64,000 nucleotides of DNA from positions 1 through 64,000 of IMG/VR virus record IMGVR_UViG_3300043449_000492. One strand, written 5' to 3'. The DNA comes from a virus. Position 1 is the stretch's first letter; each line of letters starts with the position of its first letter. Below the pieces are notes generated by a model. The model was not told where the DNA came from, searched no databases, and worked only from the letters and a program-made list of their open reading frames with translations. A program made the translations under genes and the position numbers. Shown piece by piece: positions 3,383 through 15,671 of this stretch.

Positions 3383-3409
3383 GGTGCGACAGCTTGTCGC
3401 ACCTTTTTT
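3383..3409 (+). terminator. palindrome / intrinsic terminator (early promoter module copy 1)
   Basis: GGTGCGACA-GCT-TGTCGCACC followed by T6. Confidence 0.8.
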
Positions 3410-3446: not shown

Positions 3447-3764
3447 ATGTTGAAAAGAAAAACCCGCTCCGATCGCAACCATCTTATCTATAGTCTAGCT
3501 ATAGGTAAGCGTGAATATATTGGCGTCACCGTCGTCAATGGTCGTTCCCCGACCAAATCGCTTAAACGTCGCTGGCAAAAGCATGTCCAACGTGCCCTGG
3601 CCGAAGACAAGGGCTGGAAATTGTCGCTTGCTATTCGTAAGTATGGTGCCGATGCTTTTACGGTCGAGGTCATTCAAATCGTGCGTGGCAAGTCAAATGC
3701 TCATAATGTCGAGCGTGACTTGATCCGTATTCGCAAACCCAAACTCAACACCGACATTCGCTAA
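3447..3764 (+). CDS. small GIY-YIG domain protein
   Basis: HLIY...EYIGVT, RRWQKH, AIRKYG, conserved E and LN. Confidence 0.7.
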   Translation: MLKRKTRSDRNHLIYSLAIGKREYIGVTVVNGRSPTKSLKRRWQKHVQRALAEDKGWKLSLAIRKYGADAFTVEVIQIVRGKSNAHNVERDLIRIRKPKLNTDIR

Positions 3765-3995: not shown

Positions 3996-4427
3996 ATGAA
4001 ACTGGACTACTGTGAAGCTATCGCCCGTCTCGAGGCTCTTCCGTTCGATTGTCTTGCGGAATGGTGCTATGACTCCTATAAGGATTTCTATGGCATCAAG
4101 GGTCGTCACATGAGAGGTCAGGGTTGGACCAAACTCGACTATCTCGATTGGATCAAATGTCACTTTCTCTGGGACTATGATGCTCAGGGTTGGCGCAGGC
4201 GTTCTTCGTTGAGGATTGATATGGAAGTCTATATGGTTTCGCACGAAATCGCCTATGAAGGATCATCGGTAGTTGGTATCTTCTCCGACTATGAGAAGGC
4301 CCGCTCTTTCCAGTTAGAGTATGACGCCAAGGAAATCGATTCGAAGTATGAAGGCACGGAGATCCGCAAGGTTGAGGTCGATAAGATATATGAACGTGCG
4401 TTCTTTGGAATAGGAGAGGAAGTTTAA
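3996..4427 (+). CDS. hypothetical early protein (possibly two fused modules; internal start at 4221)
   Basis: N-half has YDSYKDFYGIKGR motif; in-frame ATG at 4221 with GAGG SD starts a VYMV...GIFSDYEKA module. Confidence 0.7.
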   Translation: MKLDYCEAIARLEALPFDCLAEWCYDSYKDFYGIKGRHMRGQGWTKLDYLDWIKCHFLWDYDAQGWRRRSSLRIDMEVYMVSHEIAYEGSSVVGIFSDYEKARSFQLEYDAKEIDSKYEGTEIRKVEVDKIYERAFFGIGEEV

Positions 4428-4585
4428 TGTTTTCTCGTAAGGAACTTGAGATTATATCCGCAGCATTAGAAGACGCTATGGATAACACAAGTAGCAATGA
4501 AGCCTTTGAGGCTTATGAAATGCTATGGGAAAAAATTGAATCGGTGCTGTTTGAAATTGAACAGAAGAGGAAAAAGAATGATTGA
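4427..4585 (+). CDS. hypothetical small protein (52 aa)
   Basis: TAATG overlap; MFSRKELEIISAALEDAM... Confidence 0.55.
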   Translation: MFSRKELEIISAALEDAMDNTSSNEAFEAYEMLWEKIESVLFEIEQKRKKND

Positions 4586-4858
4586 CGAAACCAAGTTTGT
4601 GCAGATGGTCGCCGTTGCCGTCGTGAGTGTCGGGCTTACCGTCGGTGTTCTGTTAATCGCTTATCTCGATGGAGGTGGTCAGTGACAGAAGTGAAAGTCC
4701 TCATATACAATGGCAAAGGGAATAGATCGCATTTTCTCTATGGTGAGGTTGTGGATGCTAAAACAGACAATCTTATGATTTGTGCATCTGCAAAATATGT
4801 GACTGATGCTATCAAAGAGCATGGATATAAGATTGTCGAACTGGTGGTGGAGAAATAA

Positions 4859-5050
4859 ATGAGAGTTGAGACTTGGTATCTACACATTAATCTGGCTGAT
4901 GGTCGCAAGCTTCGTTTCGACAATCTGTCTCGGGTCGCTTTCAAGCGATATCTTTATTGGTATGACATTTTTATGGACGAGCGGAATGCGACGTATCAAT
5001 ACGGTCCGAATGAGCTAAAGCGTAGCAATAACTGGTTAGCTGGGACTTAG
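4859..5050 (+). CDS. hypothetical protein
   Basis: GGAG SD, ORF. Confidence 0.6.
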   Translation: MRVETWYLHINLADGRKLRFDNLSRVAFKRYLYWYDIFMDERNATYQYGPNELKRSNNWLAGT

Positions 5051-5146
5051 CTATAAGTCTTATAGTCAAGCTTGAGCTAATAGCTAGGGCTTTGCTATAA
5101 CGAGCGCCGTAGAGCCGGTCGAATCATTTTAAGCGGGGTATGTAGC

Positions 5147-5278
5147 ATGACGAAACAAAAGCGCCCCAGCGGCGCTTATAATCCGGTTGCTTTCGCTCTC
5201 AAAAGCGGGCGCTTCAAGCAACGAATAGTCAAGTCTAAGCTTAAGTATAACCGTAAGCTTAAGCATAAGGGGGTGTGA
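5147..5278 (+). CDS. ArfA-like basic microprotein (43 aa), putative ribosome rescue factor
   Basis: MTKQKRPSGAYNPVAFALKSGRFKQRIVKSKLKYNRKLKHKGV*; GGGG SD; resembles ArfA core N-x-I/V...F(R/K)QR(V/I)...Y-x-RK-x-KH. Confidence 0.6.
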   Translation: MTKQKRPSGAYNPVAFALKSGRFKQRIVKSKLKYNRKLKHKGV

Positions 5279-5299
5279 CAGCTTGTCGCACCCTTTTTT
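5271..5299 (+). terminator. palindrome / intrinsic terminator (module copy 2)
   Basis: GGGTGTGACA-GCT-TGTCGCACCC-T6. Confidence 0.8.
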
Positions 5300-5311
5300 C
5301 CGTTTTAGCCC

Positions 5312-5340
5312 TTTACATTGAACTTTTCCTGTGTTAGGAT
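5312..5340 (+). promoter_or_regulatory. early sigma70 promoter
   Basis: TTTACA-17-TAGGAT. Confidence 0.7.
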
Positions 5341-5372
5341 GGCTTATAGTGAAAAAGAGGAAAGGAATTTCT

Positions 5373-5492
5373 ATGATTATGACCGCTTCCGAATCCGACC
5401 ACGGCTTCGTCGTTCTCTATGTCGTCGTTGCCGACGATCATGTCGCTTCTAACTCTTGCAGCGTCTGGATCGTTCCCGGTACCATTCGCTAA
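5373..5492 (+). CDS. microprotein (39 aa) ending WIVPGTIR
   Basis: AAAGGA SD, first ORF after promoter. Confidence 0.55.
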   Translation: MIMTASESDHGFVVLYVVVADDHVASNSCSVWIVPGTIR

Positions 5493-5543
5493 TCTCCCCA
5501 ATCGCCAAGTCAACTGAACAATCAAAAGAAAGTGAGATATAAA

Positions 5544-6236
5544 ATGGCTATCGTTCATTACACCTCGGAATCCACCTTCGCCGTTTCGGGCAAGTATGAG
5601 TATGTCAACGTCATCAAGGAGTTTGCCGCTGGTTGCGTTATCAAGACTGGTTATCGTGACATTCGCATTATGAGTGACGTTTGGAGTAATGAGTTTTACG
5701 TCCAGTATTGGGACGAGAAGACCCAGTCGATTAAGGATATCGGTCTTTATTGCGGTGAGAACGGTGAGTGGGAACGCATGTCCCACGCCGAGGTCGATGC
5801 CACCGAAGAGACGTGGCAGGCCGTCGAGAACTTCTATTATATGCAAGAGGCTAAATCCCTCATTGCTTCCGCTAATCGTGAAGCGGCCAAGATCGTCAAG
5901 GGCTCGTCGGTTAAGGTGACTAGTGGTCGCTTTAACAAGGGTGCTGAGGGTAAGGTCATCGTCGTGATGGAAAAGTATTACGGCATGGGCTATCGTGGCT
6001 CGCTTGAGAACAAGCTGGGCATCGCCACTTCCGACGTTATGGTCGATAAGATGGTGCGTGGTCGCATTTACAAAAATCACCGTGACGTTGTTTGGGCCTG
6101 GGCTCGCAACTGTGAACTGACCGAAGTGCCTGAGGTCAACGAAACCGAGTGCTGCATCGAGGCCCTGAAAAGGGCGAAATACAAAGTTGGTACCATGCGT
6201 GGTACGATCAAGCCCCGTTACGGCTGGGCTGCTTAA
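5544..6236 (+). CDS. hypothetical early protein with KOW/SH3-like motif
   Basis: IVKGSSVKVTSGRFNKGAEGKVI motif; ATG 5544 after GAG. Confidence 0.7.
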   Translation: MAIVHYTSESTFAVSGKYEYVNVIKEFAAGCVIKTGYRDIRIMSDVWSNEFYVQYWDEKTQSIKDIGLYCGENGEWERMSHAEVDATEETWQAVENFYYMQEAKSLIASANREAAKIVKGSSVKVTSGRFNKGAEGKVIVVMEKYYGMGYRGSLENKLGIATSDVMVDKMVRGRIYKNHRDVVWAWARNCELTEVPEVNETECCIEALKRAKYKVGTMRGTIKPRYGWAA

Positions 6237-6247
6237 GGAGAAATCAA

Positions 6248-6376
6248 ATGGTAGTTTTCTATTCATACTGGTATGATAACTCTCGCCGCATTTCGTTCAT
6301 TCGCTATTGCAGTGAATGTATTTGCGACGTGGCTGATATCTCTTACTGGGCTGTTCCTGGAACTCTGGAGGACTAA
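6248..6376 (+). CDS. microprotein (42 aa) ending WAVPGTLED
   Basis: TAAGGAG SD. Confidence 0.6.
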   Translation: MVVFYSYWYDNSRRISFIRYCSECICDVADISYWAVPGTLED

Positions 6377-6378
6377 TC

Positions 6379-6585
6379 ATGAAAGTTTTTGCTGTCGTTG
6401 AACACGAGGTTTCCCCGCATGGCGAAGAATGGGGTGAGGGTCGCACTCTCAAACTGTTTATGTCCGAGGAGAAAGCCAAGGAATATAAAAAGCAGGTCAA
6501 GCGTGACCGTATCTTTGGTATCGGTGATGGTGGTGATTACCGTTCCGAAATCAAAGTGAAACAGAAGACAGTGGTGGAGGACTAA
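6379..6585 (+). CDS. hypothetical early protein (VFAV...LFMSEEKA family)
   Basis: GGAGG SD; paralogous motif. Confidence 0.7.
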   Translation: MKVFAVVEHEVSPHGEEWGEGRTLKLFMSEEKAKEYKKQVKRDRIFGIGDGGDYRSEIKVKQKTVVED

Positions 6586-14969: not shown

Positions 14970-15088
14970 TGTCAAAACTTTTATGTAAAATCTTTGGACA
15001 TAAGTTCTATAGGATTAATCCTCTTTTGAAGAATAGTCCTATTAGTCATTGGTTGCGTTGTAAAAGATGCGATCATGTAGATACATTT

Positions 15089-15096
15089 TATAAATA
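15089..15096 (+). promoter_or_regulatory. T4-type late promoter upstream of tmRNA
   Basis: Perfect TATAAATA. Confidence 0.7.
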
Positions 15097-15101
15097 GAAT
15101 T

Positions 15102-15404
15102 GCCGAAGGTCGTTGAGAGACGAAGCATAGGATTCTTGGACGTGGGGGCAGTACCCACCGTCTCCACCATGGATACACTGGTTGAGTTTAGGCCGTTGGT
15201 TATCTCGTAAAACTCTGCCAACGGATGAGAAGTTTCCAGTGTATCTTTGATGGGGACGAAATAGGTTCGACAGGATTCAGTAAGGTCGTAAGGAGACCAA
15301 AGGCGATAAGCAAATGCAGCAAATGATAATGCTCCATTTGAAGGATATGCTCTAGCAGCGTAACCTCATTGGGCTGGTGACTTGCCTAGAAACAGAAAAG
15401 TCAC
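15102..15404 (+). ncRNA. ssrA: circularly permuted two-piece tmRNA (alphaproteobacterial type)
   Basis: T-arm GTGGG-GGCAGTA-CCCAC and CGTCTCC-A-CCA ending 15169 precede GGGGACG at 15252 (7-bp acceptor stem with G3-U70); tag ANDNAPFEGYALAA* at 15319-15363; GTGACTT/AAGTCAC stem around CCTAGAAACAGAA; outer ends approximate. Confidence 0.95.
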
Positions 15405-15431
15405 ACTCACACAAACACACAGGAATTTATC

Positions 15432-15671
15432 ATGGACAAATATTCATACGATCCAAACACACCGTTTGCAATTCGTCTAGAGTTGCTGAAACTCGCTCAA
15501 TCAATCGAAAGTGAACGCATTTGGTCTGAGCGTAATCGTCTAGAAATGGACTGGCAGACCAAAAAGGAAAACGGCGTCACTGAGTCATTTCCTGAACTAC
15601 CTTCTGTCACTTATAAAAGCGTTATTGCTGTAGCAGAAGAACTAAACAAATTCGTTTCTAACAAAGGATAA
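15432..15671 (+). CDS. conserved T4-like small protein
   Basis: TPFAIRLELLKLA...AEELNKFVS. Confidence 0.75.
   Translation: MDKYSYDPNTPFAIRLELLKLAQSIESERIWSERNRLEMDWQTKKENGVTESFPELPSVTYKSVIAVAEELNKFVSNKG

What the first reader, a model, noticed from the sequence alone, without database searches (positions are those of the whole stretch)
5147..5299. Unannotated ArfA-like microprotein whose stop codon is a single variant base in the terminator palindrome
Seen: a 43-aa basic ORF (NPVAFALKSGRFKQRIVKSKLKYNRKLKHK) below the ORF-track cutoff resembles the ArfA core, though it lacks the GKGS segment. It runs into the palindrome. The 3383 copy reads GTGCGACA and this one GTGTGACA; the T creates the TGA stop while keeping the stem through a U-G wobble. 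With C, the frame would have no stop before the U-tract. Known: E. coli arfA is made from a non-stop mRNA and is thereby repressed by tmRNA. Inference: the phage carries an early, tmRNA-independent rescue factor (or ribosome-binding mimic) plus a late tmRNA, a two-stage ribosome-rescue module.
Basis: partly seen in the sequence, partly recalled or inferred. Interest (0 to 1): 0.72.

Follow-up and report, generated by a model that had tools for sequence, protein, structure and literature searches.

The report
Phage ArfA-like gene, stop inside terminator
A T4-like phage that carries its own tmRNA also has a tiny, conserved early gene distantly related to the bacterial ribosome-rescue factor ArfA. 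Here the gene ends at a stop codon inside its own terminator hairpin, so it should be made whether or not tmRNA is active, but no experiment has tested what it does.

Summary
Window 5147-5278 (+) is a real 43-codon gene. It has a ribosome-binding site and a conserved extended -10 promoter. Its UGA (5276-5278) lies in the 5' arm of a strong intrinsic terminator (5267-5299). The sister palindrome at 3383 has C where this one has T.

- **Family:** it belongs to a large family of small basic phage proteins of the DUF7230 type, found on 73 viral contigs and under purifying selection.
- **Link to ArfA:** Pfam's ArfA model misses it. A family profile matches an ArfA profile (hhalign 94%, P 1.3e-7, score 36.5; 150 column shuffles reach at most 16.6). 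The five best PDB hits are all ArfA. The profile also retrieves genuine arfA loci from bacterial genomes.
- **Kept and lost:** it keeps ArfA's Phe, QR[IV] strand, Y-x-RK and KH motif. It lacks three residues of KGKGS and the small residue at A18.
- **Relatives:** close relatives have one G fewer, read through the hairpin, and stop only at or past the U-tract, as arfA does. Three scattered members, this one included, carry UGA inside the stem.
- **tmRNA:** four of five related phage records also carry an alpha-type tmRNA.

Rescue activity is inferred, not tested. This scan has already reported phage ArfA-like non-stop genes in at least 55 other genomes. This is the stop-bearing variant.

The parts
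5072..5101 (+). Putative sigma-70-type promoter of the gene: -35 TTGAGC (5072-5077), 18-nt spacer, extended -10 TGCTATAAC (5093-5101)
   Evidence: Read. The block GCTTTGCTATA is invariant between the window and relative L002. It is not listed by the consensus scan because the last base of the -10 is C. Its function is inferred.
5133..5138 (+). Shine-Dalgarno-like GCGGGG, 8 nt before the ATG. A minimal ATG-TAG sits at 5140-5145 between the two.
   Evidence: Read. L002 has GAGGGG at the same spacing.
5147..5278 (+). Coding sequence of the 43-aa ArfA-like (DUF7230-type) basic peptide, stop included
   Evidence: ORF. Relatives. pN/pS below 1. ArfA profile match. Single copy in the genome.
5276..5278 (+). 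UGA stop codon inside the 5' arm of the terminator stem. Its T (5276) pairs with G as a wobble.
   Evidence: The same arrangement occurs in L117 and L197.
5267..5299 (+). Intrinsic terminator: G+C-rich stem about 5269-5293, loop GCT, T-run 5294-5299
   Evidence: dG -19.7, z -5.0. Compensatory changes in relatives: C-G to G-C in L002, G-C to A-T in L197.
5312..5340 (+). Next promoter-like site (TTTACA, 17 nt, TAGGAT, with TG) immediately after the terminator
   Evidence: A similar terminator-promoter module lies at 3383/3412.
3383..3409 (+). Sister copy of the palindromic terminator (C-G at the variable pair) plus T-run. A third copy lies at genome position 125935, outside the window.
15071..15454 (+). 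Phage-borne permuted, alphaproteobacterial-type tmRNA. This is the other ribosome-rescue element of the genome.
   Evidence: ARAGORN. Rfam RF04321 at 93.8 bits and RF01849 at 79.8 bits. TATAAATA at 15089-15096.

Best explanation
Window 5147-5278 is a real early gene of a 169-kb T4-like phage. It encodes a 43-residue basic peptide that is a remote relative of the bacterial alternative ribosome-rescue factor ArfA and belongs to the phage-rich DUF7230-type family. Inferred mechanism: the basic C-terminal tail (K-x-K-Y-x-R-K-x-K-H-K) enters the empty mRNA channel of ribosomes stalled at the 3' end of truncated mRNAs. The conserved Phe23 and the Q-R-I-V segment then dock a host class-I release factor, most likely RF2, by strand addition, and the nascent chain is released without tagging. 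Truncated mRNAs should be abundant during infection because of phage and host nucleases. In this phage the gene ends at UGA inside the 5' arm of its own terminator. The message therefore carries a normal stop, and the peptide should be made regardless of trans-translation. Most close relatives read through the hairpin and reach a stop only at or beyond the U-tract, which is the arfA-style non-stop design. Shown here: the gene is real and conserved, its similarity to ArfA is position-specific, and the stop and terminator are arranged as described. Inferred: ribosome binding, release-factor recruitment, early expression, and any interplay with the phage tmRNA.
For: - **The gene is real.** It has an ORF, an RBS and a conserved promoter block. 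29 database relatives and 73 viral loci carry it. pN/pS is 0.09-0.65.
- **ArfA relationship, profile level.** In a family-profile search of 177,635 PDB sequences, the five best hits are all ArfA and align over its residues 1-45 (E 0.09-0.3). hhalign of 30 family members against 30 diverse ArfA sequences gives probability 94%, P 1.3e-7, score 36.5 over 38 columns. 150 column-shuffled ArfA alignments give mean 8.7, sd 2.1, max 16.6, and the reversed alignment gives 10.4.
- **ArfA relationship, reciprocal and pairwise.** The family profile searched over 401 Pseudomonadota genomes hits 5 places, and 3 of them are the same arfA loci found with PF03889. Pairwise BLASTP of two family members against a genuine ArfA gives 41-42% identity, with the same 3-residue gap. 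Three family members touch PF03889 and seven touch DUF7230. One member is named ArfA by JGI.
- **Shared conserved positions.** These are N12/N14, L18/L20, F23/F25, R/K24/R26, Q25/Q27, R26/R28, I27/V29, K29/K31, K31/K33, Y34/Y39, R36/R41, K37/K42 and K39-H40/K44-H45. In ArfA they correspond to the RF2-contacting Phe and strand and to the KH motif in the mRNA channel (review PMC8012679).
- **Length and fold.** The 43 residues span ArfA residues 8-48, which is the ordered part of ArfA (46-48 residues). AF2 predicts only a short helix at 13-19, where ArfA has its helix.
- **Geometry.**
- **Context.** tmRNA is present in 4 of 5 phage records with the gene. RtcB RNA ligase lies directly upstream in two relatives.
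- **Precedent.** Pelagiphage HTVC027P gp30 is annotated as ArfA (PMC12753301).
Against: - Pfam PF03889 gives no hit to the window protein or anywhere in the phage genome at E up to 10. NCBIfam gives none.
- The PDB E-values are not significant on their own.
- Three residues of the invariant KGKGS are missing.
- The position aligned with A18 is F here, and K or F in the family. A18T abolishes RF2 activation in E. coli (PMC8012679).
- E30 is replaced by V.
- ArfA is known only from some beta- and gammaproteobacteria, and ArfA/RF2 pairs are species-adapted. The tmRNA type suggests an alphaproteobacterial host.
- There are no expression, ribosome-binding or release data.
Confidence: 0.5

Rival explanations
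1. ArfA mimic that blocks rather than rescues. The peptide plugs the vacant mRNA channel, and may dock RF2 in its closed form, without triggering hydrolysis. It would compete with host tmRNA-SmpB or Arf factors, or otherwise modulate host translation, early in infection.
For: The ribosome-binding tail and the RF2-docking strand are conserved. The residue aligned with A18 is bulky (F here, K or F in the family) and the N-terminus is variable. E. coli ArfA(A18T) binds and recruits RF2 but cannot activate it (PMC8012679). The KGK deletion changes the loop that fills the channel.
Against: The alignment in the helix region is uncertain for so short a protein. The family is widespread in phages that also carry tRNAs, tmRNA or RtcB, which are repair and rescue functions rather than anti-rescue functions. 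Close relatives have the arfA-type non-stop design, which makes sense for a back-up rescue factor.
Confidence: 0.2
2. A small basic nucleic-acid-binding or otherwise unrelated phage protein, whose likeness to ArfA is convergent or compositional.
For: The protein is short and rich in K and R. The curated ArfA models do not match. The PDB E-values are about 0.1. The neighbouring genes give no functional clue.
Against: The real hhalign score of 36.5 lies far outside the range of 150 composition-preserving column shuffles, whose maximum is 16.6. The family profile retrieves real arfA loci from whole genomes. At least 14 conserved positions coincide in order, including F, QR[IV], Y-x-RK and KH.
Confidence: 0.15
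3. The ORF matters mainly as a leader. A ribosome reaching the UGA in the 5' arm of the stem would melt the terminator and set the level of read-through into downstream genes, so the peptide itself would be incidental. Alternatively, the ORF is not translated at all.
For: The stop codon lies inside the terminator stem, which is the geometry of a translation-sensitive terminator.
Against: The peptide sequence is conserved with pN/pS below 1. It is also conserved in many phages where no hairpin overlaps the gene. A separate promoter-like site follows the terminator, so downstream genes do not need read-through.
Confidence: 0.05

Closest known systems
ArfA (YhdL; Pfam PF03889; PDB 5MDV, 5U4I, 5H5U, 7OJ0), the RF2-dependent alternative ribosome-rescue factor of beta- and gammaproteobacteria
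   Same: It is small and basic, and its conserved positions fall in the same order: N, L, F, QR[VI], K-x-K, Y-x-RK, KH. Its length covers the ordered 46-48 residues of ArfA. Close relatives share the ORF-runs-into-terminator design. The top PDB hits are ArfA.
   Different: It is not detected by PF03889. It lacks three residues of the invariant KGKGS, has a bulky residue at the A18 position, and has V for E30. The window copy has an in-frame UGA before the U-tract, so its message is not a non-stop mRNA. It is phage-borne, and the host is probably outside the known ArfA range.
Pfam DUF7230 (PF23876) and PHROG 2701 / 20887: small phage and bacterial proteins of unknown function
   Same: DUF7230 is the only Pfam hit to the window protein (E 0.014). 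Seven of 30 family members match it, the best at 1.2e-13. The PHROG hits have E 1e-4 and 6e-4. The annotated hypothetical protein ZZ1p0006 of Acinetobacter phage ZZ1 is a member-like relative.
   Different: The window protein scores below the DUF7230 cut-off (15.9 against 27 bits). I found no paper that links this family to ArfA (one search found none naming DUF7230).
Pelagiphage HTVC027P gp30, annotated as ArfA (PF03889 domain), expressed early and late in SAR11 infection (PMC12753301)
   Same: It is a phage-encoded ArfA-type gene in a phage of an alphaproteobacterial host.
   Different: That protein matches the Pfam ArfA model and the window protein does not. I did not compare the two sequences directly.
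BrfA (B. subtilis) and ArfT (Francisella): other small RF-dependent rescue factors
   Same: Like them it is small, has a basic tail for the mRNA channel and would depend on a release factor. BrfA shares the KH motif and the terminator-before-stop design. ArfT (40 aa) has a normal stop and is not tmRNA-regulated, like the window copy.
   Different: There is no detectable sequence relationship. BrfA chains in the PDB did not appear among the profile hits at E up to 10. ArfT was not compared.

Membership tests
ArfA (PF03889) | Match to the curated family model above its cut-off (25.5 bits) | tested here: not met
   No hit at E up to 10 for the protein or in the six-frame phage genome. Three of 30 family members hit at E 0.016 or weaker.
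ArfA (PF03889) | Position-specific similarity of the family to the ArfA core (remote homology) | tested here: met
   hhalign gives 94%, P 1.3e-7, score 36.5 against a shuffle maximum of 16.6. The top five PDB hits are ArfA. The family profile finds arfA loci in genomes. BLASTP gives 41-42% identity to a genuine ArfA.
ArfA (PF03889) | Invariant KGKGS motif in the tail that enters the mRNA channel | tested here: not met
   KGKGS is invariant in 30 of 30 sampled ArfA sequences. The phage family has a 3-residue gap there and V/K-K instead of G-S.
ArfA (PF03889) | RF2-contacting Phe25 and strand Q27-E30 | tested here: met
   F23 (F or Y in 26 of 30) and Q25-R26-I27-V28 are aligned and conserved. 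E30 is V here. The roles come from PMC8012679. This is sequence level only.
ArfA (PF03889) | Small residue at A18, needed for RF2 activation (A18T is inactive) | tested here: not met
   The aligned position is F16 in the window and K or F in the family. The alignment register in this helix is the same in HMMER and hhalign.
ArfA (PF03889) | KH motif binding a pocket of the mRNA entry channel | tested here: met
   K39-H40 aligns with K44-H45. H is the commonest residue in both families (role).
ArfA (PF03889) | Made from a non-stop mRNA (hairpin or terminator before the stop), hence repressed by trans-translation | tested here: not met
   The window has UGA at 5276-5278, 16 nt before the T-run. 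By geometry the feature is met in relatives L119 and L132 (stop beyond the U-tract) and borderline in L116, L126 and L199 (TAG at the end of the U-tract). No 3' ends were mapped.
ArfA (PF03889) | RF2-dependent peptidyl-tRNA hydrolysis on non-stop ribosomes; synthetic lethality with ssrA | not testable with these tools
DUF7230 (PF23876) | Match to the family model above its cut-off (27 bits) | tested here: inconclusive
   The window protein scores 15.9 bits, E 0.014. Seven of 30 aligned relatives match, the best at 1.2e-13.
Intrinsic (Rho-independent) terminator | G+C-rich stem-loop followed directly by a U-run | tested here: met
   A 14-pair stem followed by six T. dG is -19.7, z -5.0. Compensatory changes occur in relatives. 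Termination itself was not measured.

The most novel reading that the evidence does not exclude
A lineage of T4-like phages of probably alphaproteobacterial hosts carries a self-contained two-arm ribosome-rescue kit: its own tmRNA plus an ArfA-like factor. It toggles the factor between a tmRNA-repressed (non-stop) state and a constitutive state (UGA inside the terminator stem) by one- or two-nucleotide changes in the hairpin. The three stop-bearing members each have read-through members as their nearest relatives, so the switch would have happened repeatedly. The factor would work with release factors of hosts in which no cellular ArfA is known.
Probability: 0.3. Interest if true: 0.75.

Novelty: new variant of a known kind. 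Interest (0 to 1): 0.55.

Why it matters
- **A function for DUF7230.** If the peptide really frees stalled ribosomes, a large family of small phage genes of unknown function gains a role. Ribosome rescue would join tRNA genes, tmRNA and RNA ligases as something phages bring with them, plausibly to cope with the truncated mRNAs made by nucleases during infection or by host defence.
- **The minimal parts of ArfA.** The family is a natural deletion variant of ArfA. It has no KGK loop and a different residue at A18, so it would show which parts of ArfA are needed for channel sensing and for release-factor activation.
- **A natural experiment in regulation.** Non-stop and stop-bearing versions of the same gene occur side by side in phages that carry a tmRNA. 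This allows a test of how trans-translation gates an Arf-type factor.

Tried and rejected
- **DNA search:** blastn of 4400-6400 against 50,697 phage records gave no match.
- **Single-sequence searches:** phmmer of the single protein against the PDB gave nothing. NCBIfam gave nothing.
- **Building a diverse ArfA set:** searches seeded with E. coli ArfA returned only enterobacterial sequences. I therefore took a diverse ArfA set from a PF03889 scan of 401 genomes.
- **Complex prediction:** Complex prediction with a Caulobacter RF2 stand-in was not available, and nothing was folded.
- **Structure prediction:** the AF2 model has low confidence (mean pLDDT 67) and only a short helix. It is unsuitable for fold search, so none was run.
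- **Other rescue genes in the phage:** I found no second copy of the family, no SmpB and no RF-1-domain protein. RtcB is absent from this phage although it is present beside the gene in relatives.
- **Neighbouring genes:** they gave no functional clue.
- **Stop state versus tmRNA:** I considered that the in-hairpin stop might correlate with having a tmRNA. I rejected this because relatives with read-through frames also carry a tmRNA.
- **Other readings:** I considered a non-coding or leader-peptide reading and judged it unlikely.

Full report
**What is there.** The window is the first 64 kb of a 169,069-bp virus record with direct terminal repeats. It encodes a T4-type major capsid protein (Gp23 model, E 9e-145). 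Its G+C content is 40.7%.

A GCGGGG sits 8 nt before the ATG. Upstream is a plausible promoter with an extended -10: TTGAGC, 18 nt, then TGCTATAAC at 5072-5101 (read). The block GCTTTGCTATA in that promoter is invariant in the closest relative.

The gene ends with UGA at 5276-5278. That codon lies inside the 5' arm of a hairpin at 5267-5297, which is followed by six T. The RNA folds at -19.7 kcal/mol with z = -5.0, and none of 200 shuffles folds as well. Another promoter-like site follows directly at 5312-5340.

The same palindrome occurs at 3383 and at genome position 125935, and both of those copies have a C-G pair where this copy has U.G. If 5276 were C, the frame would continue to TAG at 5306-5308, past the T-run.

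**Is it a gene?** Yes.
- A word-indexed search found one 79%-identical protein.
- An exhaustive phmmer search found four more.
- A profile of these found 29 proteins of 36-63 residues.
- A scan of IMG/VR found 73 viral loci.
- All share the core N-P-[VI]-A, L, [FY]-[RK]-Q-R-I-V-K-S-K, K-Y-x-R-K.
- Over the 30 core codons, pN/pS between the window and six relatives is 0.09-0.65.
- The phage has a single copy.
- T4-like Acinetobacter phages carry an annotated hypothetical protein of this type, such as ZZ1p0006.

**Is it ArfA-like?** The curated models say no. PF03889 gives nothing for the protein or for the six-frame genome at E up to 10, and NCBIfam gives nothing. The only Pfam hit is DUF7230, below its cut-off (E 0.014). 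PHROGs 2701 and 20887 match weakly.

Profile-level evidence says yes.
1. The family profile was searched against 177,635 PDB sequences. It ranks five ArfA entries first, aligned over ArfA residues 1-45. The E-values are 0.09-0.3, which is not significant on its own.
2. I collected 30 diverse ArfA genes by scanning 401 Pseudomonadota genomes with PF03889. hhalign of the phage family against them gives probability 94%, P 1.3e-7 and score 36.5 over 38 columns.
3. As a control, 150 column-shuffled ArfA alignments give mean 8.7, sd 2.1 and maximum 16.6, and the reversed alignment gives 10.4. The match is therefore not a matter of composition.
4. The phage-family profile was run over 401 bacterial genomes and hit five places. 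Three of them are the very arfA loci found by PF03889.
5. Two family members align to a genuine ArfA at 41-42% identity, with the same 3-residue gap.
6. Three members touch PF03889 and seven match DUF7230, and JGI names one member ArfA.

**What is kept and what is lost.** Column by column, the two families share N, L, F, R/K, Q, R, I/V, K, K, Y, R, K and K-H in the same order.

According to the review PMC8012679, these positions have known roles in E. coli ArfA:
- F25 and the strand Q27-E30 dock RF2.
- Residues 15-24 form a helix at the decoding centre.
- The basic tail with its KH motif fills the mRNA channel.
- 46-48 residues are ordered.
- A 40-residue truncation is inactive.

The window protein spans the equivalent of ArfA residues 8-48. 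AF2 predicts only a helix at 13-19, with low confidence.

Three things differ. Three residues of the invariant KGKGS are missing. E30 is V. The position aligned with A18 is F in the window and K or F in the family, and A18T blocks RF2 activation in E. coli. The KGKGS residues bind the channel but are not individually essential (PMC6299226). The protein therefore fails several defining tests for membership of ArfA proper, while it resembles ArfA in its likely ribosome-binding and RF-docking parts.

**The stop codon and the terminator.** Only the closest subclade has the hairpin overlapping the gene. In most other family members the gene has an ordinary stop inside an operon.

Within the subclade the same hairpin is read in two frames.
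- **One G fewer (AAGGGGTG).** These members translate the stem as G-C-D-N-L-S-H-P. The stop then comes in one of three places: right after the stem (L002), at the last U of the U-tract (L116, L126, L199), or 9-21 nt beyond the U-tract (L132, L119).
- **UGA inside the 5' arm.** The window, L117 and L197 are in this state. All three have the U.G wobble.

Against homologous genes, the stop needs both the T and the extra G. With four Gs the T would be a silent Cys codon.

Each of the three stop-bearing members has read-through members as its nearest relatives. Among the database proteins, 13 have the read-through tail and 3 have the short one. The stem itself shows compensatory changes (C-G to G-C in L002, G-C to A-T in L197), so it is conserved as RNA structure.

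For members whose stop lies beyond the U-tract, terminated transcripts would be non-stop, which is the arfA/brfA design. In the window, the UGA lies about 21-24 nt before the expected 3' end, so termination should be normal and independent of tmRNA. None of this geometry has been checked by 3'-end mapping.

**Context.** The window holds a permuted alpha-type tmRNA at 15071-15454. A T4-late-type TATAAATA lies at 15089-15096. Four of the five phage records with the gene that I searched also have such a tmRNA, including ones with read-through frames. tmRNA presence therefore does not explain the stop state.

The phage has no SmpB and no RF-domain protein, so any activity depends on host factors. 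In two relatives an RtcB RNA ligase lies directly upstream. This recalls the known pairing of RtcB with the release-factor homologue PrfH in RNA-damage repair systems (PMC6514570). The neighbouring genes in the window are uninformative.

**Known or new?** ArfA is reported only from some beta- and gammaproteobacteria. One pelagiphage gene has been annotated as ArfA from a Pfam hit (PMC12753301). No paper in the library names DUF7230.

This scan has already reported phage ArfA-like non-stop genes in at least 55 other genomes. Those reports are unchecked leads, not evidence. What the window adds is a stop-bearing variant that lies beside a phage tmRNA, with read-through sister genes.

**Verdict.**
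- The gene is real and is an ArfA-like remote relative (about 0.8).
- The claim that it rescues stalled ribosomes through a host release factor is the best-supported mechanism, but it is untested (about 0.5).
- A non-activating channel plug is the main rival (about 0.2).

Noticed in passing
L116:188-1411 (also G402:25491-26624 and G403:12977-14110): In two related phages an RtcB RNA ligase gene lies directly upstream of the ArfA-like gene. The window's phage has no RtcB. This suggests an RNA-repair plus ribosome-rescue cluster.
   Followed up: partly
window 15089-15096: TATAAATA, the T4 late-promoter consensus, lies just upstream of the permuted tmRNA (Rfam start 15108). This fits late expression of the tmRNA.
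   Followed up: no
genome position 125935-125955 (outside the window): A third copy of the GGTGCGACA-N3-TGTCGCACC palindrome lies here, without a T-run after it on the + strand.
   Followed up: no
window 5140-5145: A minimal start-stop ORF (ATG TAG) lies between the Shine-Dalgarno-like GGGG and the real ATG at 5147.
   Followed up: no
L116:1645-1689, L126:3112-3156, L199:545-589, L132:3088-3132: Four read-through relatives carry a C.A mismatch at the very stem position where the window has U.G. No member sampled has the perfect U-A pair.
   Followed up: partly
L104, L105, L110, L112-L115 (arfA loci from unnamed bacterial genomes): Several genuine arfA reading frames, read to their first stop, end in ...AA, which resembles the C-terminal end of an ssrA tag.
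   Followed up: no
L192:1468-1668 (-) and L193:1405-1854 (-): Two bacterial chromosomes hold small DUF7230-like frames that the phage-family profile hits and PF03889 did not report at E <= 1e-4. They are possible cellular or prophage members of the family.
   Followed up: no
window 3447-3764: A short GIY-YIG homing-endonuclease-like ORF (PHROG E about 1e-6) lies right after the first palindromic terminator and its promoter.
   Followed up: no
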